The notes: generated from the sequence alone by a model not told the origin. DNA of 64,000 nucleotides from Flavobacteriales bacterium (GCA_041691695.1 JBEPUG010000001.1:23922-87921); one strand, 5' to 3'. Positions 599 to 55,774 are shown, counted from the first letter of the stretch. Made by a program: numbers and translations.

Positions 599-667
599 GG
601 ACGATGCATGAACACCGATCTTACGCCTCTACGGCACAACTTATCTTGTTCTCCGATCCGTCATCCT

Positions 668-1525: not shown

Positions 1526-1626
1526 TCCAGCACCTCAAATAGGAGCGTGATATCTCGCGTGCTGGCGCTGCGGGCCTACCGGACAGGCACGGCTTTCCGC
1601 TTCTATCCCTCACACACATCCCGTCA

Positions 1627-26716: not shown

Positions 26717-29700
26717 TTACTGGGTGAGCGTGAAGCGCAGGCTGATGCCGAAATTGGTATTGGCGCTGGGGAAGGAAGTGCTGATCACCGGCTTGTTGAT
26801 CACCCGCTCGTAGAAGATGCGCAGGTTCAGCCGCTGATCCAGCACATAATCCGCACTGGTCTTGATGGAGATGATGTCTTGTCCGGCGGTGATCTGATTC
26901 TGGTCCTGGGTGATCTGGCGGATCACCGTGTTGTTCTGACGCCAACTTAGGTCCACGCGCAGATTGAGATCGCTCTTCGGGGTCTTACCACCGATCTGCA
27001 CGGGGAACTTCACGTTCTTGAAACGATATCCACTGCCGATGACATACTCCTTGCCGCGCACCTCCGTCACTTGGTCATTGGTAAGGCCCAGGCCTAGGTT
27101 GCGGTCGCGGTTGTATTCGAATTTGGCCAGCAGGCTGTTCTGCAACGTGGCGTCGAAACTGAGCAGCGGATGCATCACCTCGGAAATGGTGACGCTCGAG
27201 ATCTGCTTCTGCGGTAGGAAGTTGCCGCCAGCGTCCAGCACGCTTCCGCCCTGCTGGTAGAGCAGGTTGCTCTGATAGCTGCCAATGCTCATGGTGCTCC
27301 GGTAGCTGTGCTTCAATGTGAAGGTCCGGAAGAACTTCTTGAAGAGGTCCAGCTTCGTTAGGCCGTCGTAGGTGATGTCCCAGTTCGGCAGCGGGATCAG
27401 CGAGAACGGATTGAGTTTCACCTTCGACGCGTTGGTGCCGGAATAGGCGGCAAGGAATGCGGGGATCACCACGTCTTGGCTTGTGCCACCATAGCCGACG
27501 TAGTAAAGGCTGTCGGTGGGCCCGCTGCGGTCCGGGTCGGCAATGCCCAAGCGTTGGCTGATCACCGGTCTATTTGTCAGCAGGGTGTTGAAGATGCTGT
27601 TCACGGAGTTCTTATCATCCTTACTGAAGGTAGTGGCCCAGTCGATGGTGCTCACACTGTAGCTACCGAACTCCTGTGGACTATCATTCACGTACCGCTG
27701 CTCGGTCTCGTTCCAACGGAAGAAGGAACTTCGGTTCTCACTGGCCATGCGCGTGGCCAGTAGTTCGATACGCATGCTCTTGAACGGCTCCAGTGTCAAC
27801 CTGCCATTGATGGTCTCCGTCCGCGTATCCGTATAGGGATTATAGATACTCGGCGTTTTCACCAACCAGTCCTTTCCGGCGGATGCGGTGGCGAAGTCAC
27901 GCACGTAGTTGCCACCGAGGTCCTGGTTCTGTTGACCCAGCAAGAAACCGAAGCCTGGTGCTCCAAAGCCCGGTGCCATGCCCAATACGTTGGCACCCTC
28001 TTTCCATCCGGGCAGCAGAATTCCGTTGTTCTGGCTGTAGGTGAAGGTACCCGTGCGTACCGTCATCAGCACGCGGGCCAATCCCTCCAACGGATGGATG
28101 CCACCGCTGGTCTTGTCATCGGCCTTGGCCTTGGTCCCTCCCTTGCCCCCTGCAGGCGTCTTCGCGGGCTTGCTGGGCTGGCCGTTGCTTCGTGCCTTGT
28201 CATTGATCTTCTTCAGGAACTTGATCTTGTTGTATAGGCTCACAAAGTTGAATTGACCGTTGAGGTTGATGTTGCGCGAGTTCTGGATGGTGTTGCCTAC
28301 GCTGTCCTGTGTCAGCGGCGCGCGGTCCCATTTGTAGGCTGCGGCGTAGGTCGCGTTCGCGGTGATCCAATCGGTGATCGGCAACTTGTCAAAGGGCAGC
28401 GTGTAGGTGAGGTTGACCGCTTGGTTGTATCCGGTGGTCTCACCGAAGTGCTTGATGCTGGTGAGCACGCTATCCTTCCACATCTGGTATTCATCATGGT
28501 CATCAGTGTTCACCCGGCCGGCAGGCTCACCGATGATGGCGTTGTTGTTGGCATTGAAATCCACCTTGAGGCTCTTGCTGATCTCATAGCGGAACCCATA
28601 TTGGTTGGTCCAGTTGAAGGCCTTGTTGTAGGTTGGGGCCGGAGGGAGACTCTCGATGTCCGGGTTTGGTCGGATCAACCGCTCAACATAGCTACGATCG
28701 ATCGAGGTACGTGCAGTGATCTGCTTGAATCCAAGGTTGAAGTTGAGGTCCTTGATCAAGCGAAGCCATTTGCTATTGCTTATGAAGGCGATGTTCTCAA
28801 AAGGCTTTACAGGGCGGGGCTTCGGGTTGTGCTGGTAAGTGATCCCACCACTGTATGTGCGCGTATTCTCATACTGCGTGTTCACATCGTGGTATTCCTG
28901 GTCCCCATAGGCATATGAGATCCCGAAGTTGGACACGTCGAAGAAATGCTCCGGTTTGTTGCCCTGCGGCTTCTCCTTATGGATGTTGGTGAAGTTGATA
29001 CTGCGCCGTCGCGTATAGGTTCGCAGTTCCTGCATGCGCGCTTTCCGCTCGTCCCGCGTGAGCGATCGCGTGGCATCGCTCCACAGGATATCAGGGTTCA
29101 ACGGGTCGTATTGCGGATTGATGATCTGCTCCGAGTAACCGAGGTACATCGGTACCTTGATCAAGCTTTTCTCCGGAAGGAACTTGCTCATCTCCAGGTT
29201 GGCGCTCAGGTCGATGCCGTAGCGTGTGTCCTTCTGGCGGTCGCTAACGGTCTTGTCGATGCTGCCCCAGCCGGGGGTGCTATAGTTGCCCGCCACGCTG
29301 ATGGACCCCAGGTCCGCCAAGGTGGTATTCACACGTGCGATCGTGGCACCGCCGCCGTGCTGGTCAAAATCGGTAAGGCGCAACTCGTCCACCCAGACCT
29401 CCACACACTTCGAGGATCCGTCGTCGTTGGCCCATATGTTCGCCTCGGGTCCATCCCGCTTGGGATTGCGGATGCCGATCATGATGGTGGTCATCTGGCT
29501 CAGGTTCGGATTCCCCTTCACCGTGATCCGCCGGTCGCCGTCCATCACGATATAGCGCTGACTCACCGGGAAACTCGCCTGGTTGCGCTGGATCTTCGCG
29601 TCATTCAACTTGGCGAATTCCACCACCATGTTGTTCGCCTCCGGCCACACGCTATAGGGATCGTTGTTGTTAAAGGCGGAAGGCGTAGCAGGCACCTCGT

Positions 29701-32700
29701 ACTCGTAATAGTTGTCCGTGTAGTCATTGCCCAAGCGGATAAAGACAGTGGCGTCGCCGTATTTGATCGGATGCACGGGGTCCGCGGATTCGGCATGGAT
29801 GAACATCTGGAGTTTCTTGTAACTGCGGATGTCGAAGCTCACATTGCGGAACGCCGCCCGCGCGTCGCCGTCGCGCAGGCCGCAGGTGTTCAGTTCCAAG
29901 GATTGCTCGTTCAAGGCCCGCAGATTCGCGCTGGCGATGTCCGTCTGCTGGTTGATCCCCGGAGGCAACACATAGTTGATCGGCACTCGGTTGCCGTTCT
30001 CCTCGATGTTCACCGCCGCCACGTCGAAGGTGGTCTGGTCCGGATCGCCGCCGATCACTTCTCCAGGTGTCTCCAAGCTTTGAAGGTACTTGCGCCACTC
30101 CCCTCGGACAAAGTCGAGCCGCGCGAAGCGGAGTACCACCGGTTGCGCCCAGCCCTTCAAGAACATGCGCATGAAGCGTATGGAGCGGAAATCCTGAATG
30201 CCGTTCACCGCTTTCTCCGGCTGGCGGACCGGCACTTTGAACTGGTACCAGTAGACCTGCTTTCCATCCGGCGAATTTCCCAGCACCCGGTCCGTGATGA
30301 AGTTCTGCCCGATGATCATGTTCGCCGGTCGAAGCTTGATCTGGTACTGGAAGTAGCTCTCACTCTCGCTCAGGTTCTGGTCCTGGTTGATATCCTCGGT
30401 GGTGGGCAACGTAGTGGCCTGTGTAGGGTAGTTCTCCGGGCTGTCCTCGTCGGTGATCGAGTTTCCCTCTACGCCGTTGAAGCGCTTGTACCGGTCCAGG
30501 ATCGAACGTGGTGGACTGTCGTAATCGCTTCCACGGAAGTAGTGGTAATCATCCGCAGAGGGATCGCTATTCCAGCGCGCCTTTGCACCCGGTAACAAGC
30601 TGTCGAGATAGGTCTTGAAAAAGAGCTGCTCGTTCTGACCGGCCTTGAAGGCGCGGGTGTCATCATCGCTCAGTCCGTCCATGCCCACGTCCTGGTATTT
30701 GTAGGTGTTGTTGTTGTCCGCGATGGCGAAGGCGTTCACCACGCTCTGAGTGGTAGGCACTACGCCCCAAGCGGTGACGGCGGTGGAAGCTGAGTCCTGC
30801 GGATTCTTTGGCAATCCGTTCTCGAAGCTCTTCCGGCTGTCTTTCAACACATCCTCACTCAGGTTACCCAGGTTGATGTATAGATCGCCACCGGTGGTAT
30901 TCGCAGCATCCACATTGGTGGCGGGCTCCCCGTTCCCATTGCTCACGGCCGGGTTGAAGGGGTCCATGATCCAGAATTGCACCGTCTCGATATTGCTCGC
31001 CTCGAAATCCGTGGTGGTGACGCGCCGCTCGATGCCCGCCCAATTGTTCTCGGGATCTTGCAGGTTCCCATTCTGGTCCAGGTTCGGGGTATAGTTGTAC
31101 ATCCCACGCTCGGTAGGATAATAGGCCAGGTCGAACACCGCGATATTCGACGGTGTGCCCGTGGCCAACTGCTTGTTGGGGAACACCTCGCTCTCCAACA
31201 CTTCGCGTGACCGGTTGTCCGAATCGGAGCCGTCCGGCAAGGGGGGGCGCAGGTTGTTGTTGTTGAAGAACAAGGGGTCGATCACGTACCAAGCGAGCAG
31301 CGCGCGCTTGAATCCGGTGCGCAGGTCATTGATGTATTCTCCCTCCGGGAAGAGGTCCCCGGTCTGCCCTTCCGGTGTAGGTGCCATGAACCATTGGCTT
31401 TGTGTGCGCATGTCGATGTTGCTCACGCTGCCCTCGAAATCATCGATATAACTCGTGCCCGCAGCACCGATGGCCTTGCTGTGCCCGGGAATGAGGTAGG
31501 CGGTTTCCGCGCTGGCATCAACCGTACTCACCGTTTTGGTGGCATAGAACGGCAGTTTATCGACCAGGCGAGTGATGTAGTTGCTCTCGGTCTTCCAGTT
31601 CGCATCCAACCCGAAGATGGTGTTGGCGATCGGCTCGTCCCCCACGTTCACTTTTTGCGTCAGGGGCCGCTCATAAAGGTTCATCACCGTCCCGCCAAGG
31701 ACAAGGTCCTTGTTCACCTTGTAGTCGAAGCGCGCGCCAGCAAGCGTCTTGGTCTGAATGCTGAAGAGCGAATTGCTCTCCAAGCTCACGTTTATCGGCG
31801 TGCCGCTCTCAAGGATGCCTTGGTTGAGGATCTTCACCCGGCCCAAATTGTAGTCCACCGTATAGTCCTGGTTCTCGACCAGCTTCACGCCTCCGGCGGT
31901 AACGCTTACAGAACCCTGCGGGATGTTCACCGAGTTGAGGCTGATCACATCGCTACTGGCGCTTTTGAAACTGCCCTTCAGCGTGAAGCGGTCCAGTGCC
32001 GGTAGATTTTCAGCGGCCGTCTTCGTACTGTCATAGAGCTGCTGGAAGACGATGTTCTTTCTCACCAGCGGACCCTGGATAGGGTTGTTCGGATCCGGCC
32101 CGATCAACTGTTGGTCCAGGTAGCTGCCGAACGGCTCCAACACAGGGAAGAAGACCCGACCATTGTCCGCATTGATGGTTCCACCCAGCGTGGCAGCATT
32201 GTCCACGAAGTCGAAACTACCATCCGGGTTTGGTGCTCCTTGCGCGTCCAACCGGTCAAGGGCCAAAGCGCGCAACAGGGGGATCTGGTCAATGGGTGGC
32301 TTCGGAATGTAATTGAGGTCCACACCGGTAGTGGGGTTGTTGTAGAGCAGTTCCAGCCGGAAGTCCTGCGGATTCACTTGGAAGGCGCCAAGGGAATAGA
32401 CGTTCTTCATCATCAGGTCCCACAGTGGAAGCAGCGGGTTCGTGATAGTGGATTTCAACAGGCGCAGCATCAGGGCCTTGGGCGGGGCGATACCATCGGT
32501 ACTGAATTCCCCGACCTGGAAGGTCTGCCCTTGGTAGGTGTACTGGTAGGCCACCGCCAATACTTCGTCGTTGTTCAGGTTCTGGCTCAGGCCGATGAAG
32601 CCTAGTCGGGCGTTCAATGTATATTCGCTGGGACTCAACAGGCGCGCGCTTTCGAGTTTTTCATAGTTCGTGCTCGCTTGTAGGCCCAGCACCTGCAGCG

Positions 32701-33970
32701 AAGCGGAGGCGGCCGTGAAGGAGCGTATGCCCGCGTTGTTCGATACGGTAGAGTAGAGGCTGTTCGCGTCGTTGGAAGCGATCACACCAGGGTGGTCCAC
32801 GATGGTTCCATTGCTCACTAGCAAAGGGCTCACGTGGTTTGCTGCCACAGCTGCCGCGCTGGCATCCTCACCGAGATCCGTGAAAGCCACGATGTTCCTG
32901 TTGTTGGTATAGTCGCTCCGCGTATTGGTGACCCAGACCTCCACCTTGGTCACTTGCACACCACTGCTCACCGTTGGCAGCGTGCTCAGCGCCTTCTCAT
33001 AATTATTGCGGAAATAGTAGCTGAGGAAGTAGTATTTGTTCGCCTCATACTCGTCCGCCTTGATGGTGAAATTGGTGGTCTGCGCACCACCCGCCACTGC
33101 GATGTCCTTTCGTTGGCCTTTCTCCTGGCTGAATATGGCGGTGGCCGTCAGTTTCCCGAAGCGCAGCTCGGTCTTCAGGCCGAAGAGGCTTTGGCTGCCT
33201 TGGATCAATTGTCCGGTAAGAGGGAGGCTCACGTTGCCCGCCTCCAGTTTTTGGATGATCTCGTCCTCATGGCCCGTGTAATCAAGCTTCACCTGATTCT
33301 CAAAGTCGAAGGTGGCCTCGGTGTTGTAGCTGGTATTGATCTTCAGCTTGTCCCCGATGTTGCCCACCAGGTTCAACTGGATCTTCTGGTCAAAGTTGAA
33401 GGTGGTGATCTTCCGCTGGCTTACCGGTATTCGCGGGTTCTCGGTCTTGCTCGTGTTCAGCCCGAAGGTCACCTCGGCACTTCCCTGCGGGCGGATGTCG
33501 ATGTTGCATCCCCCGAAGATCCGGCAGAATGCTTCGTTGCGCACTTGGATGCTCGGGATCAGTCCCTTCGCCGCACGTTGGCTGTCCTCCTGATTCTTGT
33601 CCAGCCAGTAGGTCTTCATGGACTTCGACATGTCGTAGTCCATGTACTGCTGCAAGGTCATGCTCTGCGGCGGACGATAGTCCATGTTGTCGCCGATCCG
33701 GCTTTGCAGGATGTACTGGCCCGTCACCGGATCGTAGACCACATCGTTGGTCACGTTGCTGGGCGTGCCCAGGTCGATGGTGCCCGTGTTGTTGTCGCCG
33801 CTGGACGGCGGATCGACTATTGGATAGTGCAGGTCCACTTCCGGGCTGTCGACCGGAAGCACCATGGTGCTACGACCGTATGCCTGTTGACCGCCAGCGA
33901 ACGATCCCAAGAGCACGGCAAACAAGGCCCACGTACGAATGGGAAGGGGGCGCTGAGAGGGGGCCGTCAT
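26717..33970 (-). CDS. sprA: Type IX secretion system translocon / gliding motility protein SprA
   Basis: 2417-aa ORF with a signal peptide ([27 protein letters not shown]) and beta-rich composition throughout. The size matches SprA (about 2400 aa) of Flavobacterium johnsoniae, and T9SS cargo genes are adjacent. Confidence 0.85.
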
Positions 33971-34601: not shown

Positions 34602-34871
34602 CTCTGGCCTGCCGGAACTGGTATTGAGCGTTCGGCAGGAGGGAGTAAAGTTGGAACTATGGGCGCGCGGTTTTGGTGCAAAAGGGCTGCAAAATAAGCG
34701 GATCCCCCGAACCGGGGTGATGTACTTTTCAAGGCACGAAAAGTGACCACCCAAACACAACTCCAGCAAGAGCGTCACATCGTGATCAGGCCAGTGCCGA
34801 GATCCTCGCAATTCTTACAAATCGCATCCATGTATTGCTCAACATCCATGCGCCCACGGACATGGTCCTTG

Positions 34872-34906
34872 AAAAAAGCCAGCTTGGAGGAACCAAGCTG
34901 GCTTTT
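34872..34906 (-). terminator. Rho-independent (bidirectional-type) terminator after the T9SS cargo gene
   Basis: AAAAAA-GCCAGCTTGG-aggaa-CCAAGCTGGC-TTTT. It has a perfect 10-bp GC-rich stem extended by A/T pairs. On the minus strand the stem is followed by a run of six U. It lies 18 nt after the stop at 34924. Confidence 0.75.
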
Positions 34907-34923
34907 CAAGAAACGGGCGATCC

Positions 34924-35688
34924 TCAACGTGCGATCACCAAGCGCTTAGTAGCCAGTGCAAGGCCGTTGCGCTCGAGCACCGCGAACCATACCCCGGAGG
35001 CAAGGTCGTTCTCGTTCAAGACCACGCGGCCTTGAGCCGCGCTGAGGTTACGCACCAGCTTGCGCTCGCCCAGCATGTTATAAATGGCCAAGCGTGTGCC
35101 CACACCGACCGCAGCGAGGTCATAATCCAGCGTAATGTTGCCCCCGATGGAAGGATTGGGGTAAGCCGTGAAGCTGCGCACCGGCGCGGCAGCCTCATTT
35201 ATGCCAACGATCTGTGCGTTGAATACGAAATCGACCCACGTACTATCATTCGGATCGTTCGTGTCATACCAGACGTAGCGGAAGGTGGCGGGTCCATCCA
35301 CATGAATGGGAACATAGTAAGCGTGGAAGCCATTGACGGTCTGTCCGGCCGTCATGGAAATGGGATCGGCAGCAACCCAGAGCGGACTCTGACCGGCATC
35401 CCGTGCACCATAGCACAAGTCCCAGCAGAAATAGTTCTGTGTCCCGTGTGGGACATCCACCTCGTAGCGCTTCACATTCACCGTGCGTGCGGTACCGGAA
35501 ATATTCTGGGTGGCCAAGTCGCTCTCCAAGATCTGGGTGGTGTTATCAGCGAAAGGCTGCGTGACATATACCGTTGTGCCCGTCACGACGTTGCCATTGA
35601 CATCGGTGAGCTGGACCAACTGTGCTTGGGCCACACCGGACGCCATCAAGCAGATCACGAGGGCGGAAAGAGCGTAGGGATGTTTCAT
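34924..35688 (-). CDS. Secreted protein of unknown function with a T9SS type-A C-terminal sorting domain
   Basis: The ATG is at 35688, giving the signal peptide MKHPYALSALVICLMASGVAQA. The C-terminus reads FTAYPNPSIGGNITLDYDL, IYNMLGERK and SGVWFAVLERNG. Confidence 0.75.
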   Translation of the reverse strand: MKHPYALSALVICLMASGVAQAQLVQLTDVNGNVVTGTTVYVTQPFADNTTQILESDLATQNISGTARTVNVKRYEVDVPHGTQNYFCWDLCYGARDAGQSPLWVAADPISMTAGQTVNGFHAYYVPIHVDGPATFRYVWYDTNDPNDSTWVDFVFNAQIVGINEAAAPVRSFTAYPNPSIGGNITLDYDLAAVGVGTRLAIYNMLGERKLVRNLSAAQGRVVLNENDLASGVWFAVLERNGLALATKRLVIAR

Positions 35689-35718
35689 GGTCGATTGGGT
35701 ATCTGGTCCTATTGCGTA

Positions 35719-35726
35719 CAAAAGTA
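35719..35726 (-). promoter_or_regulatory. Candidate Bacteroidota -7 promoter box (TACTTTTG on the minus strand)
   Basis: It matches TAnnTTTG and lies about 30 nt upstream of the ATG at 35688. Confidence 0.3.
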
Positions 35727-35864
35727 AGGTCTATGGGCAGGTGCATGCCACAAACCGGGGCCTCAACCAGGTGGGATGGGATCCCAACATTACCGCAAGT
35801 GAAATTCCCATGGGATATGATCAACCCTTAGCTTCGTGACCTCAACCCGTAAAACCTGCCCAAC

Positions 35865-37325
35865 ATGAAGAAGAAATTACTCCTCTCTGCCATGGTGCTT
35901 TCCGCTGCGGGAGCCATGGCACAGTTGCCGCCCAATTCCTACGCGCCTGATTTCACGGCGACGGACATCAACGGCATCAGCCAAAATCTTTACGCTTACA
36001 CCGATTCTGGGTACACCGTGTTCCTGGACATCTTCGCTACGTGGTGCGGACCTTGCTGGAACTACAATAACACCCATGCGTTGGATGACCTCTACACCAC
36101 CTATGGCCCCGGCACAGCGCAGAACAAGGTGCGGGTCTTCGCCATCGAAGGTGACCCCGCCACCACCTTGGCAGACCTTAATGGTACAGGCAGCAACACC
36201 CAAGGCGACTGGGTTACCGGCACACCTTACCCCACTCTTGACAACGCGACCATCGCCAACGATTACCAGATCACCTACTATCCCACCATCTACATGATCT
36301 GCCCCAATAGGATCGTGAACGAAGTGGGCCAAAAAACCACAGCCCAACTCTGGGCCGGTGTGGGCAGCTGCCAAGCCGCGGCCAGTGGCATCAACGCCAG
36401 TCTCCTCCAATACACCGGGGACAAAGTGATCTGCGACAATGTGAACGCGACGCTCACTATCCAAAACATGGGCACCAGCCCGCTTACTACGGTCGATGTT
36501 GCTATGATGCAGGGTACTACTGTACTTAGCACCCAGACCTGGAACGGCAGCTTGGCCACGTACAACACGGCCGACGTGACCGTTCCATCAACTACAGTAA
36601 GCGACCCATCCACGGTGACCTTCGCTATCACTACCCCCGATGCGAACACTGCAGACAACACGCTGAACCCCGGACTTAGTTCCGCCGTGCCCGCCATGGC
36701 CAATCTCACCTTCACGCTGAACCTTGACTACTACTGCTCCGAGACCACTTGGAAACTGTACAACAGCGCGGGTGCCATCGTTCATTCCGGTGGCCCATAT
36801 AGCTGCGCCACCGCTGGTGGTGGAGCGGATGCGCACACCACCAAGACCTACAGTTGGACCGTGCCCGAGGATTGCTACCGCATGTACGTGTATGATGTCT
36901 ACGGTGATGGCCTTACCTCTGCATCGTATGGCCACCCGCCTGATGGTAGCTTCAACATGGTAGACGGTGGTGGACATCTCGTCTACAGCGGCGCCGGTAA
37001 CTTCGGTTCGCAGTACCTCGGTGGTCTCAATGTGAACATGCCAGCTGGCATTGAGCAAGAGAACGCTTTGAGCAATAGCCTCACCGTGTATCCTAACCCA
37101 AGCAGCGGTATCGTGAACCTGAATTATAACCTCGACCATGCTGCACGCGTGACCGTTGAGGTGTACGATGCCTTGGGTAAGCTGGTGCTGGCCCACAGCA
37201 ACACTGTTCCCGCCGGTCTGCAGTTGCAGCCGATGGACTTCGGATCGCTGGACAACGGCATCTACTTCATGAACATCGTAGCGGACGGTCTCAAGGCCTC
37301 CCGCACCATCACGCTGACCAAATAA
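35865..37325 (+). CDS. Thioredoxin-fold (redoxin, WCGPC) protein with a T9SS type-A C-terminal sorting domain
   Basis: The signal peptide is MKKKLLLSAMVLSAAGAMA. The N-terminal redoxin-like domain reads APDFTATDINGISQNLYAY and VFLDIFATWCGPCWNY. The C-terminus reads LTVYPNPSSGIVNLNYNL, VEVYDALGKLV and NGIYFMNIVADG. Confidence 0.8.
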   Translation: MKKKLLLSAMVLSAAGAMAQLPPNSYAPDFTATDINGISQNLYAYTDSGYTVFLDIFATWCGPCWNYNNTHALDDLYTTYGPGTAQNKVRVFAIEGDPATTLADLNGTGSNTQGDWVTGTPYPTLDNATIANDYQITYYPTIYMICPNRIVNEVGQKTTAQLWAGVGSCQAAASGINASLLQYTGDKVICDNVNATLTIQNMGTSPLTTVDVAMMQGTTVLSTQTWNGSLATYNTADVTVPSTTVSDPSTVTFAITTPDANTADNTLNPGLSSAVPAMANLTFTLNLDYYCSETTWKLYNSAGAIVHSGGPYSCATAGGGADAHTTKTYSWTVPEDCYRMYVYDVYGDGLTSASYGHPPDGSFNMVDGGGHLVYSGAGNFGSQYLGGLNVNMPAGIEQENALSNSLTVYPNPSSGIVNLNYNLDHAARVTVEVYDALGKLVLAHSNTVPAGLQLQPMDFGSLDNGIYFMNIVADGLKASRTITLTK

Positions 37326-37348
37326 AGCTGGTGTGAATCTCCATTGAC

Positions 37349-37398
37349 AAGGCCGACGGACCTGCTACTATATGCACGGACCGTCGGCCTTTTCTTTG
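37349..37398 (+). terminator. Rho-independent terminator
   Basis: AAGGCCGACGG (37349-37359) pairs with CCGTCGGCCTT (37381-37391), an 11-bp stem followed by TTCTTTGG. It begins 24 nt after the stop at 37325. Confidence 0.7.
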
Positions 37399-37451
37399 GC
37401 CCATGTTTTGACTATCCGCCCGATCCAGACAGTAGCTTACCAACCCAACGC

Positions 37452-37949
37452 ATGCTCATGAAAAAAATCATCACCTCCCTCGCCCTCGCCCTGCCCCTTA
37501 TGCTCGCCGCACAGACCGGCAAGGTCCCCTCGGTGACCGTGCAGACACTCACCGGACAGAAGGTGAATACCAACACATGGTCCAACAACGGGAAGCCCAT
37601 GATCATCGACTTCTGGGCAACATGGTGCGCTCCCTGCAAGCTCGAGCTCAACAACATCAATGACGTTTATCCCGATTGGCAGAAGCAGACCGGCGTGAAG
37701 CTGATCGCCGTGAGCATCGACGATCCCCGCAGCATGAACCGCGTGGCCCCTTACGTGAATGGACAAGCTTGGGATTATGAGGTGTACCTCGATCCCAATG
37801 GAGATCTCAAGCGCGCTCTGAACGTCAACAACGTTCCGCACACCTTTCTGGTCGACGGCAAAGGCAATATCGTTTGGCAGCACAACAACTACGAGCCTGG
37901 CGATGAGAACGAGTTGTATGAGCAAGTGAAGAAGCTCGTGGGAAAGTGA
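37452..37949 (+). CDS. TlpA-like periplasmic thiol:disulfide oxidoreductase (redoxin family)
   Basis: The signal peptide is MLMKKIITSLALALPLMLAA. The active site is IIDFWATWCAPCKLE, with NVPHTFLVDGKGNIV also present. The start is at 37452 or 37458. Confidence 0.85.
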   Translation: MLMKKIITSLALALPLMLAAQTGKVPSVTVQTLTGQKVNTNTWSNNGKPMIIDFWATWCAPCKLELNNINDVYPDWQKQTGVKLIAVSIDDPRSMNRVAPYVNGQAWDYEVYLDPNGDLKRALNVNNVPHTFLVDGKGNIVWQHNNYEPGDENELYEQVKKLVGK

Positions 37950-38075
37950 AGGTTGAGCTACGTGAAGTATGGGAGGTGATGGAGGTAAGGACAGTAAGGG
38001 AGTCACTGCCGACTACCCATTGCCTCTGTAGACTTAAACTGCCGACTGTAAGCAGCAGGACTCCAAGACTCCTGG
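37950..38075. repeat. Intergenic simple-sequence island D (GGTGATGGAGG-type arm followed by ACTGCCGACT direct repeats)
   Basis: The left arm reads GTGAAGGTTGAGCTACGTGAAGTATGGGAGGTGATGGAGGTAAGGACAGTAAGGGAG. ACTGCCGACT then occurs at 38005-38014 and 38038-38047. Confidence 0.5.
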
Positions 38076-38233
38076 ATCAACGATCGAACACAAAGGCACC
38101 GGCACTGCTCAGGCGCTGTAAATTGGCACCACTTCTATAAGGCAGTTCGCAGCGCTTGCACGACCATTGGCCTTCTATTGTACACTGAACCCGATCGTCA
38201 CTTCAGCCATTACAGGATCACCACCGGTATCAC

Positions 38234-39904
38234 ATGCATCCACGGATACGCCTCGCCACCACACTGTCCGCGTTCATCGCAGCCCTCGGCCTTTTCGCCC
38301 AAGATGGCGGCCAGATCCACGGCAACTTCAGCACCGATGGGCAGCTTTATCAGGCTGACGATCAGATCGGTGCCATAAAACCTCCCGCTGACTTCGGACT
38401 GAACGCATGGAGTAATTTGAATTATCGCTCCGGAAACTTCCAAGCGGGGGTACGTTTCGAGACCTATCTGCCAGCACTGCTCGGATATCCTGCCGGTTCG
38501 CCTTACAAGGGGACGGGACTAGGCTACCGCTATGCCACCTACACCGCGAACGACCTGGAGGTGACCGTGGGCAATTTCTACGAACAATTCGGCCAAGGTC
38601 TTGCCTTCCGCAGCTATGAGGAACGCTCCCTCGGCGTGGACAATGCCATGGACGGCGTACGCCTGAAATTCAACCCGGACACCGGTATCTACCTCAAGGC
38701 CTTCATCGGGAAGCAGCGCTTTGCCTTCGATAACGGATTTGTCGATGGCACTGGCATTGTCCGTGGCATCGACGGCGAGGTCTCCCTCACCGAGGCCTTT
38801 CCGCACCTCTTTCCGAAGTGGGTGGAGAAGGGCCATTTTCTCACTGTCGGCGGCAGCTTCGTCTCCAAGTTCCAGGCCGACCTGGATCCCCTGTTGGAAC
38901 TCCCGGAAAACGTCGGTACGTGGGCGGCTCGCGCCAATTACACCACGGCGAAATGGAATCTATACAGCGAGTATGCCTATAAGATAAACGACCCAAATGG
39001 CAGCAACCACTTCATCTACAAACCGGGTCAAGCCCTGATGGCCAATGCCACCTACAGCGTGCGCGGGCTCGGCATCAGCGCAGGCGCACACACCTATGAC
39101 AACATGGTGTTCCAAAGCGATCGCGGCGCGCCTAGCCCATTCGACCTCAACATCAACTTCCTCCCCACCCTTACCACGCAGAGCACCTACAACCTGCCTG
39201 CGACGCTTTACCCCTACGCCACGCAGCCCAATGGTGAAGTTGCTTATCAGGGTGAGATCTTCTATAAGATCAAGCGGGGTTCCAAGCTGGGCGGGAAATA
39301 CGGCACCAAGCTCACCTTGAACTGGAGCGGGTCTTGGAGCTTGGACAGCACTGCCATCCCGAACGACACCATTCATTATCTCGGGTATACCACGAAATTC
39401 TTCGCCAGGGGCAACCGCCAATACTATAGCGATATCAACGCGGAGGTTCGTCACAAATTCAACGACAAGTGGGAACTCGCCTTCACCTACATGAACCTCG
39501 TCTATGACATCGCGACCATCCAAGGACATCCCGGATTGCCGGTGGTGTATGCCAACGTCTACATCCTGGACGGGATATACAGTTTCAACGAAAAGACCTC
39601 GCTGCACTTTGAGCTGCAGCAGCTTTCCACCAAGCAGGACCAAGGGGATTGGGCAACGGGATTGGCGGAACTCACCTTCAGCCCGCACTGGTTCGTGGCC
39701 GCATTGGACCAATTCAACTATGGCGGCCCGGTGACGACCGAACAGATCCAATACCCCATCGGCACCTTCGGCTACATCCGCGGCGGTTCCCGCTTTTCCT
39801 TCAGCTACGGCCGCCAGCGCGCGGGCATCTTCTGCGTGGGCGGCGTCTGCCGCGTGGTACCGGCCGCCAATGGCCTCACCGCCTCCATCACCACAACCTT
39901 CTAA
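38234..39904 (+). CDS. Predicted outer-membrane beta-barrel protein (resembles the Bacteroidota family usually annotated DUF6029)
   Basis: It has a signal peptide (LSAFIAALGLFAQ) and an alternating beta-strand pattern throughout. The C-terminus is aromatic (ASITTTF). Recognition of the N-terminal GNFSTDGQLYQ, LNYRSGNFQAGVRFE and NFYEQFGQGLAFRSYE pattern is from memory only. Confidence 0.6.
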   Translation: MHPRIRLATTLSAFIAALGLFAQDGGQIHGNFSTDGQLYQADDQIGAIKPPADFGLNAWSNLNYRSGNFQAGVRFETYLPALLGYPAGSPYKGTGLGYRYATYTANDLEVTVGNFYEQFGQGLAFRSYEERSLGVDNAMDGVRLKFNPDTGIYLKAFIGKQRFAFDNGFVDGTGIVRGIDGEVSLTEAFPHLFPKWVEKGHFLTVGGSFVSKFQADLDPLLELPENVGTWAARANYTTAKWNLYSEYAYKINDPNGSNHFIYKPGQALMANATYSVRGLGISAGAHTYDNMVFQSDRGAPSPFDLNINFLPTLTTQSTYNLPATLYPYATQPNGEVAYQGEIFYKIKRGSKLGGKYGTKLTLNWSGSWSLDSTAIPNDTIHYLGYTTKFFARGNRQYYSDINAEVRHKFNDKWELAFTYMNLVYDIATIQGHPGLPVVYANVYILDGIYSFNEKTSLHFELQQLSTKQDQGDWATGLAELTFSPHWFVAALDQFNYGGPVTTEQIQYPIGTFGYIRGGSRFSFSYGRQRAGIFCVGGVCRVVPAANGLTASITTTF

Positions 39905-39919
39905 CCTCCCGAGACCGGG

Positions 39920-40810
39920 ATGAAAAACATGCGCACTCTGATCACCTTCCTGCTGGCACTCGCTCTCCTCTCGGGTTGCGACATCATCGACATGCCCCAG
40001 AACGACAACGCGCACCCCGTGAATCCGGTCACTGGCCTTACACGCCGGGTGTTGCTCGAGGATTGCACCGGAGCGCGTTGCCCGAACTGCCCAACTGCTG
40101 CGGATCTAGCGGAGAGCATTCAGAACTTTTACAATACGAATGAGGAACGCGTGATCGTGGTGGACATCAATATGGTTGCCCAATTCTCCGCTCCGCTGGC
40201 ACCAGATTACACCACCGACTTCCGTACACCCGCCGGAGATGAATACGCTACACATTACAACTTATCCGTTATCGGATTGCCAAGTGGATTGATCAATCGC
40301 ATGCCATACGGGGGCGTGGTTCCTCAAGGGGCTGGTAGTTGGAGCAGTGCCGTGGCAGCGGTGATCGACCTGCCACCGGATATGGATGTTTGGTTCGACA
40401 GCTTCAACTTCAATAGTGCCACGAATGTGGTCACCACCACCGTGAAGGTGGCGGTGATCAATGCGATCAACGGTCCGCACAACCTTACGGTCTACCTCAC
40501 GGAAGACCACGTTATTGACTGGCAAGAAGATGTCCGTTTACCACTAGGCCAGCAAAACGTGCCCGACTATGACCACCGCCATGTATTGCGGGACAACCTC
40601 AACGGCACTTGGGGCGATGTGATAATCCCGACCAGTGCCCAGCCCGGAGATACGCTCTCGGAGTCCTTCACGTATACGCTGCCTCCGGCAGGTGCGATCA
40701 ACCATGTGATCAATACCGCGAACTGCTCGCTCGTGGCATACGTGTATAGCACCAGCGGTGCCGACGCGGATGAGGTAAAGCAGGTGGCCGAGCGCAAGTT
40801 CGTACCGTAA
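39920..40810 (+). CDS. Omp28-related outer-membrane lipoprotein with a thioredoxin-like CxxC region
   Basis: The lipobox is LALALLSGC. VLLEDCTGARCPNCP resembles the E-x-FTG-x-x-C-x-x-CP signature of the Omp28 family. The gene starts 15 nt after the barrel gene. Confidence 0.6.
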   Translation: MKNMRTLITFLLALALLSGCDIIDMPQNDNAHPVNPVTGLTRRVLLEDCTGARCPNCPTAADLAESIQNFYNTNEERVIVVDINMVAQFSAPLAPDYTTDFRTPAGDEYATHYNLSVIGLPSGLINRMPYGGVVPQGAGSWSSAVAAVIDLPPDMDVWFDSFNFNSATNVVTTTVKVAVINAINGPHNLTVYLTEDHVIDWQEDVRLPLGQQNVPDYDHRHVLRDNLNGTWGDVIIPTSAQPGDTLSESFTYTLPPAGAINHVINTANCSLVAYVYSTSGADADEVKQVAERKFVP

Positions 40811-40934
40811 ACGATACTTGGCGAAAGCTGAACATACCGATCCGACAGCGGCGACGTTAAACGCTGAATATCCCGGGTTCATCGACTCGTTACAAGTTGT
40901 CAACTATCCTTTGAGGTTCTTTCCAAACCTTTCC

Positions 40935-40946
40935 GATAGATCTATC
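40935..40946. promoter_or_regulatory. Perfect 12-nt palindrome GATAGATCTATC upstream of a small ORF
   Basis: Read directly from the sequence. It lies 46 nt upstream of the ATG at 40992. Confidence 0.2.
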
Positions 40947-40991
40947 TTCATCCCAGAATTGAGGCCTGCAAGCCGCATAAAACGGATCGCG

Positions 40992-41207
40992 ATGAAGGAA
41001 CAAGGGAGAAAGATGCTGGAGCTCAGCCAGCAGGTATTGCAGAAGGTCAGCTTCGACCCACGTCTGTTCCACAAAGAACTGGTGAAGGCCACACGCTGGG
41101 TAGGAGACCGCGATCAACTCTTGCTCAAGGCCTGGTGCCTCGCCACCTTTGGCCACATGTACAAGGATGTGATCATGGAGGTCTTCAAGCGGGGCATGCG
41201 CGCGTGA
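40992..41207 (+). CDS. Small hypothetical protein (71 aa)
   Basis: The ATG at 40992 gives MKEQGRKMLELSQQVLQKVSFDPRLFHKELVKATRWV. Codon usage resembles neighbouring genes, but I did not recognise any family. Confidence 0.4.
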   Translation: MKEQGRKMLELSQQVLQKVSFDPRLFHKELVKATRWVGDRDQLLLKAWCLATFGHMYKDVIMEVFKRGMRA

Positions 41208-41390
41208 GTTTGCCGCAGAGTCGCTGAGAAAATGCAGGTTGGGATCGGTGATCGGACGTGCTCGGTTCAAAGCCTTAAGAGGTAAGATTCCAGCCACAAG
41301 CCTGCGACGCACAGCTTGCGGTTTGAAGCTTATGGCTCATCATCCAAGACTCGAATTCCTCTGTTTCTCTGTGACCTATCCGCGCCCGGA

Positions 41391-41460
41391 TCAAGACCCG
41401 ATCACCTCTGTGTCGCCATGACCCGGTGGTGTATCCCCTCCCTTTCCTCCCTCTCCACTC
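41391..41460. repeat. Purine-rich simple-sequence island G forming the 3' tail of queG
   Basis: The minus-strand sense reads AGTGGAGAGGGAGGAAAGGGAGGGGATACACCACCGGGTCATGGCGACACAGAGGTGATCGGGTCTTGA. It is translated as SGEGGKGGDTPPGHGDTEVIGS. Confidence 0.45.
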
Positions 41461-45948: not shown

Positions 45949-45952
45949 GGTC

Positions 45953-47221
45953 TCAATTCGGTTGTTTGTTCTTGCCTTCAGCGGCTTGGGCCTCTGTAGC
46001 GACCTGCGTCTTGGATGAATCCGCGACGGCGTTGCCTACGGAAGGACCGGATGACTTCTCAAAGATCGGCAACAGGATATTCCACACCTTGAATGCCCCA
46101 GCACTTTCCACGGTCAGCGGCGCTTGCATGTTGTAGTGCGAGATACCACAGACCTTGTTGCACAAGAGGATGTAGTCGAAATCCGGGTTGCCGGTGATGG
46201 TGCGCATGCTATCCGTTGTGATCGTTGGCACAAGATGGATACGAGTGGTCATGCCTGGCACCGCGTTCATTTGGGCCCGCATGTGGGGCAAATAGACGCT
46301 GTGTATCACATCTTGGCTGCGGATCAGCAGTTCCACTTCGGTGTTCAACGGCAGATGGAACTCCTTGGTGATCTTATCGTCGGAACCATGCAAATAGGCG
46401 CTGTTGTTCCCATTGGCCGCGATGTCCTGTTCCATCAGGGTGCGCAGGTTCATAATGCCTTCGGATTCTCTTTCCAGATGTGAGATGTGGTCATCCATAT
46501 CCCCCAGCTTATCCTTGGGCAGATCCGTTGACCCTGCTTCACGATCAGCCTTTTCCTTATCGGTCTGGTCGCGTAATTCCGTTAGGCGTTTGGCGATGGT
46601 AGCACGCGTCACTACGCCCAATGGATTGTCCCCATCGATCAAGCGGAAATCGGTGGCTCCCAACTGGCCATCCTTGCCGGGATAGCGAAAGGTCCAATCG
46701 AACTGCTTCGCATAGATCTCCACCTCCATGGTCCCGGGCGCTGGCGCTGCAGTGATACTATTCCAAACCGTGAGACCATAGATAATGACCCCGATCAGAA
46801 CTACGGCCGGGATCACCGTCCAAGCCATCTCCAATCTGTTGTTGTGGGGATACCAGTGGGCTTTCCTGCCCGCTCTGTGATAATAGCGGCCTGCGAAGTA
46901 GAACAGGGCGATGTTGGTACCGAAGAAGACGATGCCAAGCAGGTACCAGTTGAAGCGGAACATTCCATCGATCAACACACCTTGGGTACTGGCGGGCGGC
47001 GGCAGGAAGACACTTTGGTAGTGGATGGGTATCCAGATGAAGAAAGAAAGGTAGAGGGCGCCGAAAGCCCACATCATCCGTCCTGTGAGGCGATTGTCAC
47101 GCTCCGGGATCTCCTCCTGCCGTTGGCCGCGCAGGGTGGCGGTAAGCTCGGCCACTCGGCTCAGGCGGAAGACCACCAGAAGGCCGAGGACCACTACGGC
47201 AAGGATCAACAAGGTCGTCAT
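45953..47221 (-). CDS. coxB: Cytochrome c oxidase subunit II (CuA)
   Basis: N-terminal TM helices are followed by the CuA ligands in DVIHSVYLPHMRAQMNAVPG and CNKVCGISHYNM. Confidence 0.9.
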   Translation of the reverse strand: MTTLLILAVVVLGLLVVFRLSRVAELTATLRGQRQEEIPERDNRLTGRMMWAFGALYLSFFIWIPIHYQSVFLPPPASTQGVLIDGMFRFNWYLLGIVFFGTNIALFYFAGRYYHRAGRKAHWYPHNNRLEMAWTVIPAVVLIGVIIYGLTVWNSITAAPAPGTMEVEIYAKQFDWTFRYPGKDGQLGATDFRLIDGDNPLGVVTRATIAKRLTELRDQTDKEKADREAGSTDLPKDKLGDMDDHISHLERESEGIMNLRTLMEQDIAANGNNSAYLHGSDDKITKEFHLPLNTEVELLIRSQDVIHSVYLPHMRAQMNAVPGMTTRIHLVPTITTDSMRTITGNPDFDYILLCNKVCGISHYNMQAPLTVESAGAFKVWNILLPIFEKSSGPSVGNAVADSSKTQVATEAQAAEGKNKQPN

Positions 47222-47251
47222 GCTATTCGATTATGCGCGGTGATGGTCCGG

Positions 47252-48460: not shown

Positions 48461-48476
48461 CGCTGCTTCCGTTTGT

Positions 48477-49696: not shown

Positions 49697-49701
49697 TCCG
49701 C

Positions 49702-51096: not shown

Positions 51097-51110
51097 ATCG
51101 CGGTTCTCTC

Positions 51111-54398
<3,288 letters not shown>

Positions 54399-54417
54399 CT
54401 GTCTGCGCTGTTCGGTC

Positions 54418-55731: not shown

Positions 55732-55774
55732 TCCGGACGATTTAAGAGGCGGATCGCGGTGGATCTTCACCGCG

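What the first reader, a model, noticed from the sequence alone, without database searches (positions are those of the whole stretch)
34924..40810. Envelope cluster of three thioredoxin-fold proteins in three compartments plus an outer-membrane barrel: candidate outer-membrane/surface thiol-redox system
Within 6 kb, next to the T9SS translocon gene, lie five genes.
- A T9SS cargo of unknown function (34924-35688) with a CWDLC motif.
- A T9SS cargo (35865-37325) whose N-terminal domain is a redoxin with WCGPC.
- A signal-peptide TlpA-like redoxin with WCAPC (37452-37949).
- A 556-aa predicted outer-membrane beta-barrel (DUF6029-like).
- 15 nt later, a lipoprotein of the Omp28-related family with C-x4-C-x2-C (CTGARCPNCP).

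The predicted locations are cell surface or extracellular, periplasm, outer-membrane channel, and outer-membrane-anchored. None of the last three has an experimentally defined role that I know of, and no DsbD/CcdA-type electron donor is encoded here. The arrangement suggests a relay that moves or uses reducing equivalents at or across the outer membrane, or that handles a thiol-reactive substrate.
Basis: partly seen in the sequence, partly recalled or inferred. Interest (0 to 1): 0.7.

Follow-up and report, generated by a model that had tools for sequence, protein, structure and literature searches.

The report
Outer-membrane thiol-redox module beside PorA
Five neighbouring envelope genes, each with an invariant cysteine pair, form a gene module conserved from environmental Flavobacteriales to Porphyromonas gingivalis; it links an uncharacterised redoxin, barrel and lipoprotein trio to the type IX secretion regulator PorA and to an HBP35-like surface thioredoxin, and its function has never been tested.

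Summary
All five genes and their cysteine motifs are present as described, with three corrections.

- **Lipoprotein E:** only the CxxC (C54/C57) is conserved. The first Cys of the reported C-x4-C-x2-C motif is not.
- **Barrel D:** the DUF6029 barrel carries its own invariant C-x4-C.
- **Gene A:** it belongs to the PorA family (P. gingivalis PGN_0123/PG2172), so it is not of unknown function.

**Synteny.** The core TlpA-like redoxin, DUF6029 and Omp28 trio is adjacent in about 71-73 of 76 Flavobacteriales loci. It is also adjacent in 8 of 8 distant loci whose flanking genes are unrelated. In a P. gingivalis-type contig the order is DUF6029, Omp28, PorA.

**Structure.** The model of E is a thioredoxin fold plus a beta-sandwich, and its best structural match is HBP35. 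D models as a barrel of about 24 strands, with its conserved Cys hairpin in an extracellular loop.

**The B slot.** It always holds a T9SS cargo with a thioredoxin-type CxxC domain, but that domain comes from two unrelated subfamilies. This points to selection for the function.

**Interpretation.** The most likely role is thiol-disulfide exchange from the periplasm to outer-membrane and surface partners, including PorA. This is inferred only; the direction of exchange and the substrates are unknown. I found no paper describing the module.

The parts
26717..33970 (-). SprA/Sov T9SS translocon gene (context, not part of the module)
   Evidence: 2417-aa ORF. Its orthologue in L001 carries PF14349 SprA_N. 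It is syntenic in the close clade only.
34924..35688 (-). Gene A: PorA-family T9SS cargo. It has a signal peptide, an Ig-like N-domain of about 145 aa with an invariant Cx3C (C88/C92, 35413-35427), and a basic-rich type A CTD.
   Evidence: PorA identity of the P. gingivalis neighbour: PDB 6kjk, E 6e-85.
35719..35726 (-). Bacteroidota-type -7 promoter motif TACTTTTG, about 38 nt upstream of the start of A
   Evidence: It is the only TAnnTTTG match on either strand in 34700-41400. This is a consensus match only.
35865..37325 (+). Gene B: T9SS cargo with an N-terminal ResA/TlpA-type thioredoxin domain (WCGPC at 36045-36056, YPT cis-Pro motif), middle domains and a type A CTD. It is a functional analogue of HBP35.
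   Evidence: The CxxC is kept in every complete B-slot protein, in two unrelated thioredoxin subtypes.
37341..37397 (+). Terminator-like hairpin followed by UUUUCUUU, between B and C
   Evidence: Minimum free energy -34.9 kcal/mol, z-score -9.3, and 0 of 200 shuffles fold as well.
37452..37949 (+). Gene C: secreted TlpA/ResA-type thiol:disulfide oxidoreductase (WCAPC at 37626-37637)
   Evidence: Best solved relative is 2m72, E 5.8e-45. Cysteines are 73/73 conserved. It lies directly upstream of DUF6029 in about 71/76 loci.
38234..39904 (+). Gene D: DUF6029 outer-membrane beta-barrel of about 24 strands, with an invariant Cys-x4-Cys hairpin (C534/C539, 39833-39850) in the last extracellular loop
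39920..40810 (+). Gene E: Omp28-family lipoprotein (lipobox Cys20). It is a thioredoxin fold with CPNC (C54/C57, 40079-40090) and invariant P121, followed by an Ig-like beta-sandwich with the YDHRHVLR motif.
40995..41207 (+). Small conserved ORF F (about 70 aa, no signal peptide). It lies downstream of E in most Flavobacteriales loci. Whether it belongs to the module is doubtful.
   Evidence: phmmer hits in most loci. No Pfam or NCBIfam hit. Absent from the distant loci.

Best explanation
The region encodes a conserved Bacteroidota envelope module built around cysteine pairs.

**Core**
- C is a soluble periplasmic TlpA/ResA-type reductase.
- D is a DUF6029 outer-membrane barrel of about 24 strands. 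Its most conserved segments, including a Cys-x4-Cys hairpin, are extracellular loops.
- E is an Omp28-family lipoprotein. It is a thioredoxin-fold CxxC protein with an Ig-like domain, and its closest structural match is HBP35.

**Accessory**
- A is a PorA homologue with an Ig-like domain carrying an invariant Cx3C.
- B is a surface thioredoxin-fold CxxC protein.
- Both are T9SS cargos.

**Proposed mechanism**
1. C is kept reduced by a CcdA/DsbD encoded elsewhere in the genome.
2. D and E form a barrel-lipoprotein complex.
3. Thiol-disulfide exchange through C, D and E sets or resets the redox state of cysteine pairs at the outer membrane and cell surface. The likely clients are the T9SS-delivered partners PorA and the HBP35-like thioredoxin.

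**What is shown:** the gene content, the folds, the invariant cysteines, and synteny across two classes.

**What is inferred:** the D-E complex, the orientation of E, electron flow, and the identity of the clients.
For: **Cysteine and active-site conservation**
- All five proteins keep a cysteine pair across 62-81 homologues and in eight distant loci.
- E's model has mean pLDDT 90. C54 and C57 sit just before and at the start of helix 57-71, and invariant P121 sits before strand 122-125, which is the canonical thioredoxin active-site geometry.
- E's top structural match is HBP35 (5y1a, E 1.5e-11 over 280 columns). HBP35 has measured thioredoxin activity that depends on its two cysteines (PMC2907840).

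**Synteny**
- C lies directly upstream of D in about 71/76 loci, and E directly downstream in 73/76.
- The trio is present in 8 of 8 independent Omp28 look-ups with unrelated flanking genes.
- A P. gingivalis-type contig reads DUF6029 (NCSGGVCRVVP), then Omp28 (CLNC), then PorA.
- PorA-like and Omp28-domain CxxC cargos recur beside the trio in rearranged orientations in L085, L087, L089 and L090.

**Replacement in the B slot**
- Of the B-slot proteins, 26 carry a TlpA-type domain and 26 an Omp28/HBP35-type domain. Every complete one keeps one CxxC.

**Other**
- An NCBIfam family of Omp28-related selenoproteins exists, which fits a catalytic redox Cys.
- The topology of the D model puts the Cys hairpin and the other ultra-conserved segments on the extracellular side.
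Against: - There are no experimental data on C, D or E in any organism that I could find.
- Mutating PorA Cys92/96/137/181 did not affect PorXY-SigP activation in P. gingivalis (PMC12152298), so the client role has no known phenotype.
- Passage of reducing equivalents to or across an outer membrane by thiol exchange has no precedent.
- E's orientation (surface or periplasm) is unknown, and D's Cys pair could be a purely structural disulfide.
- A and B are adjacent to the trio in only about half of the distant loci.
- Within the close clade, unrelated genes (ruvA, queG, ruvB) are just as syntenic.
- Four or five loci lack C next to D, and three lack E.
- In this window B ends with a strong terminator-like hairpin, and C is 284 nt from D.
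Confidence: 0.42

Rival explanations
1. D, helped by E and C, is a T9SS-independent route that places PorA-family proteins (and perhaps E itself) on the cell surface. C would keep the passenger's cysteines reduced in the periplasm. The 24-strand pore would pass Ig-like domains one at a time, as an usher does. The thioredoxin-like lipoprotein would capture or oxidise the passenger outside.
For: [quoted passage not shown]
- porA sits directly after DUF6029-Omp28 in P. gingivalis, and PorA-like genes flank the trio elsewhere.
- D's highest TM-scores are to the 24-strand usher pores PapC and FimD (0.44-0.45).
- The PorA N-domain resembles the FimH lectin domain (PMC7712824).
Against: - The TM-scores are low and the matches are generic to large barrels.
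- About half of the distant loci have no PorA-like gene nearby.
- The authors suggest small CTD proteins may simply leak out by another route.
- No energy source or chaperone is evident.
- The PorA-GSGS data show that surface exposure depends on the CTD (PMC12152298, section 2.2).
Confidence: 0.17
2. The trio is a ligand-acquisition system for haem, a thiophilic metal, or sulfur/selenium species. E would capture the ligand at the surface, as HBP35 binds haemin. D would be the channel and C the periplasmic acceptor or reductase. The CxxC pairs would bind or reductively release the ligand.
For: - HBP35 binds haemin and is needed for growth under haemin limitation (PMC2907840).
- E is a structural homologue of HBP35 and has an invariant Y-x-H-x-H-V-L-R motif.
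- Barrel plus surface-lipoprotein pairs are the usual uptake design in Bacteroidota. XusA-XusB and BtuB-BtuG appear among the barrel hits.
- An Omp28-related selenoprotein family exists.
Against: - No N-terminal plug domain or TonB box was identified: the whole 556-aa protein is accounted for by DUF6029 and the modelled barrel.
- The module occurs in both an aerobe with haem-copper oxidase and the haem-auxotrophic anaerobe P. gingivalis.
- A CxxC plus cis-Pro and a TlpA-type partner are typical of redox catalysis, not ligand binding.
- No inner-membrane transporter is linked in any locus.
Confidence: 0.18
3. D is a polysaccharide-export or general porin barrel with E as its accessory lipoprotein. 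C only assists their biogenesis by reducing or isomerising their own cysteines. A and B are unrelated neighbours.
For: - HHpred similarity of plug-less Wzi-like barrels to DUF6029 has been reported (PMC9603273).
- AlgE, MOMP and porins are among the fold hits.
- A flippase gene lies downstream in L088.
- In the close clade the synteny extends equally to housekeeping genes.
Against: - No OPX (outer-membrane polysaccharide export), Wzx or Wzy genes flank the trio in the other loci.
- The window's own polysaccharide cluster is more than 12 kb away and has its own Wza-like gene.
- The non-orthologous replacement that preserves a CxxC thioredoxin in the B slot, and the recurrence of PorA-like genes in rearranged loci, are hard to explain by chance neighbourhood.
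Confidence: 0.1

Closest known systems
PorA (PGN_0123/PG2172) of Porphyromonas gingivalis; N-domain structure 6KJK
   Same: - Gene A has the same architecture and size: signal peptide, Ig-like domain of about 140 aa, type A CTD, 254 versus 246 aa.
- The Cx3C is at the same position (FCWDLCY versus LCFGQCM).
- The CTD is basic-rich: 9 K+R in the last 80 aa versus 10 in PorA.
- Both neighbour Omp28 and DUF6029.
- Whole-protein hhalign gives probability 97% and E 3e-11.
- PorA-N alone hits A-family representatives at 45.5, 28 and 27 bits.
   Different: - Direct N-domain similarity is weak: hhalign score 24-30, against 13.8 or less for shuffles.
- PorA's role as a ligand of PorY is known only in P. 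gingivalis, and whether this organism has PorXY-SigP was not testable.
- Here the gene is divergent upstream of the trio rather than downstream of Omp28.
HBP35 (PGN_0659/PG0616), the T9SS surface thioredoxin and haemin-binding protein; structure 5Y1A
   Same: - E's model matches HBP35 over 280 columns (E 1.5e-11, TM 0.58/0.55): a thioredoxin domain with CxxC plus an Ig-like sandwich.
- B shares the concept of a T9SS-anchored CxxC thioredoxin.
- Half of the B-slot proteins in relatives carry the Omp28/HBP35-type domain.
- PorA and Hbp35 are both secreted without PorE-PorP (PMC12773672).
   Different: - E is a lipoprotein without a CTD.
- The window's B uses a ResA/TlpA-type thioredoxin domain rather than the HBP35 type.
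- Sequence identity is about 15%.
- Haemin binding was not tested.
- hbp35 is not next to the trio in P. gingivalis, judging by locus tags.
Omp28 (PG2173) of P. gingivalis; partial structure 2R2C
   Same: - E matches PF11551.
- The profile of E homologues matches 2r2c at E 1e-28.
- Full-length P. gingivalis Omp28 has the same lipobox-CDIID start and a CLNC motif.
   Different: - E scores below NCBIfam's Omp28 cut-off (129.7 versus 150), so it is 'Omp28-related'.
- The solved fragment lacks the N-terminal CxxC part.
- I found no paper that describes Omp28 as a thioredoxin-fold protein.
DsbD/CcdA to TlpA/ResA/CcmG periplasmic reductive pathways
   Same: C has the fold, the WCxxC motif and the export signal of these reductases.
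   Different: - Known clients are periplasmic: apocytochrome c, Sco, CoxB, Msr.
- Here the conserved partners are an outer-membrane barrel and a lipoprotein.
- No CcdA/DsbD gene is linked.
MtrCAB outer-membrane electron conduit (architectural analogy only)
   Same: It has the same three-part layout: a periplasmic redox protein, a large barrel and a redox lipoprotein. MtrB is among the barrel's fold hits.
   Different: - That system is haem-based. No CxxCH motif occurs in C, D or E.
- The TM-score is only 0.36, so no homology is implied.

Membership tests
TlpA/ResA-type thiol:disulfide oxidoreductase (gene C) | Thioredoxin-like fold of the AhpC-TSA/Redoxin type | tested here: met
   PF00578 75.7 bits and PF08534 62.2 bits, both above their cut-offs. 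ResA, StoA and DsbE are the best NCBIfam hits. PDB 2m72, E 5.8e-45.
TlpA/ResA-type thiol:disulfide oxidoreductase (gene C) | WCxxC active site, conserved | tested here: met
   WCAPC. Both Cys are conserved in 73/73 homologues, and W-C-x-P-C is present in all eight distant loci.
TlpA/ResA-type thiol:disulfide oxidoreductase (gene C) | Reduced by a CcdA/DsbD membrane partner | not testable with these tools
   None is encoded among the window ORFs scanned. The rest of the genome is not available.
DUF6029 (gene D) | Match to PF19494 over its full length | tested here: met
   582.8 bits, profile positions 13-538 of 538.
DUF6029 (gene D) | Outer-membrane beta-barrel | tested here: met
   The AF2 model (pLDDT 76) has about 24 strands with 2-4-residue periplasmic turns and a C-terminal Phe. 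All fold hits are OM barrels.
Omp28 family lipoprotein (gene E) | Match to PF11551 and homology to the 2R2C domain | tested here: met
   71.2 bits against a cut-off of 34.9. 2r2c at E 1.1e-9 with the single sequence and 1e-28 with the profile.
Omp28 family lipoprotein (gene E) | NCBIfam NF033782 trusted cut-off | tested here: not met
   129.7 bits against a cut-off of 150. P. gingivalis Omp28 scores 316.6. E is therefore 'Omp28-related', a diverged member.
Omp28 family lipoprotein (gene E) | Lipobox cysteine | tested here: met
   LSGC at residues 17-20. C20 and D21 are invariant.
Redox-active thioredoxin-fold protein (gene E) | CxxC at the N-terminus of helix 1 and a cis-Pro loop before strand 3 | tested here: met
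   C54/C57 precede helix 57-71, and invariant P121 precedes strand 122-125, in a model of pLDDT 90.
Redox-active thioredoxin-fold protein (gene E) | Oxidoreductase activity | not testable with these tools
   This needs an insulin-reduction assay or a redox-potential measurement.
PorA family (gene A) | Signal peptide, single Ig-like N-domain and type A T9SS CTD, about 250 aa in all | tested here: met
   PF18962/TIGR04183 at residues 176-252. Typical family length is 240-260 aa.
PorA family (gene A) | N-domain homologous to PorA-N (6KJK) | tested here: met
   - PorA-N without its CTD hits A-family representatives at 45.5, 28.4 and 27.0 bits.
- The profile search of the PDB returns 6kjk as the only non-CTD hit (E 0.011).
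- Direct N-only hhalign scores 24-30, against 13.8 or less for shuffles.
PorA family (gene A) | Binds PorY and activates PorXY-SigP | not testable with these tools
   Only a correlate is available: the CTD is rich in basic residues, as in PorA (9 versus 10 K+R; neighbouring cargo B has 5) (PMC12152298, section 2.6).
HBP35-like T9SS thioredoxin (gene B) | Thioredoxin-fold CxxC domain plus T9SS CTD | tested here: met
   WCGPC. ResA alignment over residues 24-162. CTD 51.5 bits.
HBP35-like T9SS thioredoxin (gene B) | HBP35/Omp28-type thioredoxin plus Ig module | tested here: not met
   The window's B has the TlpA/ResA type. No similarity to E. Twenty-six relatives carry the Omp28 type in the same slot. 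B is therefore an analogue of HBP35, not a member of its family.

The most novel reading that the evidence does not exclude
DUF6029 with its Omp28 lipoprotein is a previously unrecognised outer-membrane translocation or redox gate of Bacteroidota. It would be either the unknown T9SS-independent route by which PorA reaches the cell surface, or a thiol-based trans-outer-membrane relay (a cysteine counterpart of MtrCAB) that feeds periplasmic reducing power to surface thioredoxins. Either reading couples the envelope redox state to the PorA-PorXY-SigP control of type IX secretion.
Probability: 0.22. Interest if true: 0.9.

Novelty: new variant of a known kind. Interest (0 to 1): 0.68.

Why it matters
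1. It gives a genomic context, and a testable partner set, to three orphans: Omp28 (known since 2002 with no function), DUF6029, and the TlpA-like protein solved as 2M72.
2. It places PorA, the ligand of the PorXY system that controls T9SS expression in a major periodontal pathogen, inside a conserved cysteine-based envelope module. That offers candidate answers to two open questions in the PorA papers: how PorA reaches the surface without the T9SS, and what its N-domain and conserved cysteines are for.
3. It shows that Omp28 is a thioredoxin-fold CxxC protein homologous in structure to HBP35, which suggests that surface or outer-membrane thiol chemistry is a general feature of T9SS-bearing Bacteroidota.
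4. If the relay or translocon reading is right, it would be a new kind of outer-membrane machine.

All the key experiments can be done in P. gingivalis with existing antibodies and mutants.

Tried and rejected
- **Sequence relation between B and E:** none was found for the window's B. The link exists only through the alternative B-slot architecture.
- **PDB search with the DUF6029 profile:** only spurious RecA hits.
- **PDB search with A alone:** no hit. The PorA link emerged only through the P. gingivalis neighbour, profiles and transitive search.
- **Omp28-domain CTD cargo L087_695 against the PDB:** CTD hit only, so HBP35 likeness rests on the fold search with E.
- **Sigma-70 promoter scan:** one match against 4.0 expected by chance, and this promoter type does not apply to Bacteroidota.
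- **Literature on PG2173-2175 and PGN_0120-0125:** only proteomic listings. The supplement of PMC12152298 was not held.
- **C-x4-C-x2-C as a three-Cys metal site:** rejected because C49 is not conserved.
- **Mere vertical synteny as the explanation for the trio:** rejected because eight distant loci keep it with different flanks. For A and B this explanation is only weakened, not excluded.
- **My recollection that 2M72 is PG_2175:** I could not verify it with the tools.

Full report
**Observation**

| Gene | Coordinates | Main features |
|---|---|---|
| A | 34924-35688 (-) | Type A T9SS sorting domain (CTD); motif FCWDLCY |
| B | 35865-37325 (+) | N-terminal domain aligning to ResA/TlpA proteins, with WCGPC and a YPT cis-Pro motif, plus a CTD |
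| C | 37452-37949 (+) | Clear AhpC-TSA/Redoxin protein with WCAPC and a signal peptide |
| D | 38234-39904 (+) | Full-length DUF6029 match, 583 bits |
| E | 39920-40810 (+) | Starts 15 nt after D; lipobox (LSGC); matches Pfam Omp28 |

E scores below NCBIfam's Omp28 cut-off, which is why such proteins are named 'Omp28-related'. SprA lies at 26717-33970 with ruvA in between. I found no CcdA/DsbD among the 30 non-overlapping window ORFs of 150 aa or more outside the cluster that I scanned.

**Conservation of the cysteines**

I fetched 80 species-level genome loci that encode a DUF6029 relative at 48-79% identity. I searched their ORFs with the window proteins and aligned the homologues.

- A: both cysteines in 62/62.
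- C: both in 73/73.
- E: lipobox Cys and C54/C57 in 71/71.
- E's C49, the first Cys of the reported C-x4-C-x2-C, is usually Phe. The real motif is therefore a CxxC.

The same motifs recur in eight much more distant loci.

**Synteny**

Among loci with enough flanking sequence:

- the TlpA-like gene is directly upstream of DUF6029 in about 71 of 76;
- the Omp28-like gene is directly downstream in 73 of 76.

In the close clade the whole order sprA-ruvA-A-B-C-D-E-F-queG-ruvB is kept. Adjacency of A and B there could be plain vertical inheritance. The decisive data are therefore the distant loci.

Starting from the P. gingivalis Omp28 sequence (PDB 2r2c), I retrieved diverse Omp28 proteins and looked up eight of them on long contigs. 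All eight showed Redoxin (about 170 aa), DUF6029 (about 550 aa) and Omp28 (about 290 aa) in that order. The gaps were short and the flanking genes were completely different.

A ninth locus is a P. gingivalis-type contig (its Omp28 is 98% identical to 2r2c). It shows the C-terminus of a DUF6029 protein (…NCSGGVCRVVP…), then Omp28 with CLNC, then a 240-aa CTD protein.

**Gene A is a PorA homologue**

That 240-aa protein is PorA: it matches PDB 6kjk, 'N-terminal domain of PorA', at E 6e-85. PorA is PGN_0123/PG2172 (PMC8754138; PMC7712824), next to PG2173, which is Omp28 (PMC9722745).

Evidence that the window's A belongs to this family:

- The A-family profile aligns with full-length PorA at hhalign probability 97% and E 3e-11 over 226 columns, with the Cys motifs superposed.
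- The profile search of the PDB gives 6kjk as the only non-CTD hit.
- Using only the N-domains, the direct signal is weak but above noise: score 24-30 against 13.8 or less for shuffles.
- The A N-domain retrieves 758 representative clusters. PorA-N without its CTD hits several of these at 45.5, 28 and 27 bits, against a background of 6,171 unrelated ORFs.
- The Cys pair is kept in about 97% of 102 single-domain representatives, mostly as Cx3C.
- A-family CTDs are rich in basic residues, as PorA's is. These residues matter for PorY activation (PMC12152298).

PorA-like genes also sit beside the trio in L087 and L090, on the other strand, and a related 248-aa CTD protein follows Omp28 in L085.

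**Gene E is a thioredoxin-fold protein like HBP35**

The AF2 model of E (pLDDT 90) has a thioredoxin-like beta-alpha-beta...beta-alpha core at residues 44-150. C54 and C57 sit just before and at the start of the first helix, and invariant P121 sits before the third strand. A beta-sandwich follows.

Its best structural match is P. gingivalis HBP35 (5y1a, E 1.5e-11, 280 columns), ahead of the partial Omp28 structure. HBP35 is a T9SS cargo with demonstrated, cysteine-dependent thioredoxin activity and haemin binding (PMC2907840). I found no paper that describes Omp28 as a thioredoxin-fold protein.

**The B slot**

In relatives, the gene in B's position is always a T9SS cargo, but its redox domain is of two unrelated kinds:

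- 26 proteins (the window's included) carry a TlpA/ResA-type domain;
- 26 carry an Omp28/HBP35-type domain;
- 3 are truncated ORFs.

Each complete protein has one CxxC inside that domain. Omp28-domain CxxC cargos also flank the trio in L085, L087, L089 and L090. Replacement of one thioredoxin type by another at the same slot argues for selection on 'a surface CxxC thioredoxin here', not for chance neighbourhood.

In this window B is followed by a very stable hairpin plus a U-tract (-34.9 kcal/mol, z -9.3). B is therefore probably its own transcription unit.

**The barrel**

The model of D (pLDDT 76) has about 24 strands, with 2-4-residue turns on the side that holds both termini. By that topology, three segments are extracellular loops: the Cys hairpin (527-544) and the two other most conserved, least confidently modelled segments (116-138 and 290-334). 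This is my inference from the model.

Fold matches are generic large barrels with TM-scores of 0.45 or less. The highest are to the 24-strand usher pores PapC and FimD. One paper notes HHpred similarity between DUF6029 and plug-less Wzi-like barrels (PMC9603273).

**Mechanism**

Established:

- a conserved trio of periplasmic TlpA-type reductase, outer-membrane barrel and thioredoxin-fold lipoprotein, each with an invariant Cys pair;
- two T9SS-delivered partners, PorA-like and HBP35-like, that are also cysteine-bearing and are frequent neighbours.

Inferred, as the most economical reading (confidence about 0.4):

- C is reduced by a distal CcdA/DsbD;
- D and E form a barrel-lipoprotein complex;
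- the system sets the redox state of cysteine pairs at the outer membrane and surface, with PorA and the surface thioredoxin as likely clients.

Rival readings:

- an HBP35-style system for acquiring haem, a metal, or sulfur/selenium;
- a porin or polysaccharide barrel whose redoxin only serves its own biogenesis.

Points against the redox-client idea:

- PorA's cysteines are dispensable for PorXY-SigP activation (PMC12152298);
- A and B are missing next to the trio in about half of the distant loci.

One further detail fits the grouping of A and B: PorA and Hbp35 share the unusual property of being secreted without PorE-PorP (PMC12773672).

**Novelty**

Each part is annotated, and PorA, HBP35 and fragments of Omp28 and the TlpA-like protein (2m72, 141 aligned residues, E 5.8e-45) have been studied or solved. 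In the searchable literature I found no description of any of the following:

- the trio as a unit;
- Omp28 as a thioredoxin;
- the barrel's Cys hairpin;
- the linkage of the trio to porA.

I rate the finding as a new variant of the extracytoplasmic thiol:disulfide pathways. There is roughly a one-in-five chance that it is something categorically new: an outer-membrane thiol relay or a PorA translocon.

Noticed in passing
window 40995-41207 (+): A small ORF of about 70 aa with no signal peptide and no family hit. It is conserved immediately downstream of the Omp28-like gene in most Flavobacteriales loci but absent from the distant loci.
   Followed up: partly
window 37341-37397 (+): A very stable hairpin (-34.9 kcal/mol, z -9.3) followed by UUUUCUUU between B and C. 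It is probably an intrinsic terminator that separates B from C-D-E. A sigma-70-like TTGACA/TACTAT match overlaps it.
   Followed up: yes
window 38234-39904 (D residues 116-138, 290-334, 527-544): The three most sequence-conserved stretches of the barrel are exactly the segments AlphaFold models with the lowest confidence (pLDDT below 50). All three are predicted to be extracellular loops, which suggests a partner-dependent or lumen-folding structure.
   Followed up: partly
proteins P0420, P0309, P0314, P0341; L015, L073, L076: Some PorA-N-like proteins carry 2-4 tandem copies of the Cys-bearing Ig-like domain (365-695 aa). Some genomes have two adjacent PorA-like genes.
   Followed up: no
L041 7674-9701: The TlpA-like and DUF6029 reading frames appear joined in one 675-aa ORF. 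This is either a natural fusion or a frameshift or assembly error.
   Followed up: no
window about 5000-25800: A large cluster for a sulfated polysaccharide. It holds at least four sulfotransferases, WecG-type and group 1 glycosyltransferases, a flippase, an initiating sugar transferase, a Wza-like exporter, an MBOAT, APS kinase, a PAPS-reductase-domain protein (probably CysD-like) and a CysN-like GTPase.
   Followed up: partly
window 44143-55770 (-): A respiratory block: cytochrome c oxidase subunits I and II (assigned from their translated sequences only, not scanned against Pfam), alternative complex III (ActD, an NrfD-like subunit, a molybdopterin/4Fe-4S subunit) and multihaem cytochromes c. 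The organism is therefore an aerobe, unlike P. gingivalis, which shares the module.
   Followed up: partly
window 11-4944: An ORF with an IMS_C (ImuB/Y-family polymerase) domain, a BRO-N domain gene and a DnaE2-like Pol III alpha gene. This looks like an error-prone polymerase cassette, possibly with a phage-derived insertion.
   Followed up: no
L083/L084 6892-12885: In one Bacteroidales MAG (metagenome-assembled genome), the trio is followed by two very large gingipain-like C25 peptidases carrying T9SS sorting-type domains (FlgD_ig on one, Por_Secre_tail on the other).
   Followed up: no
literature: PMC12937337 Table 1, PMC4335976: Omp28 was detected only in outer-membrane vesicles from H2O2-treated P. 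gingivalis. PG2174, the DUF6029 protein, is listed among vesicle proteins of strain W83. Both are weak hints of outer-membrane location and a response to oxidative stress.
   Followed up: partly
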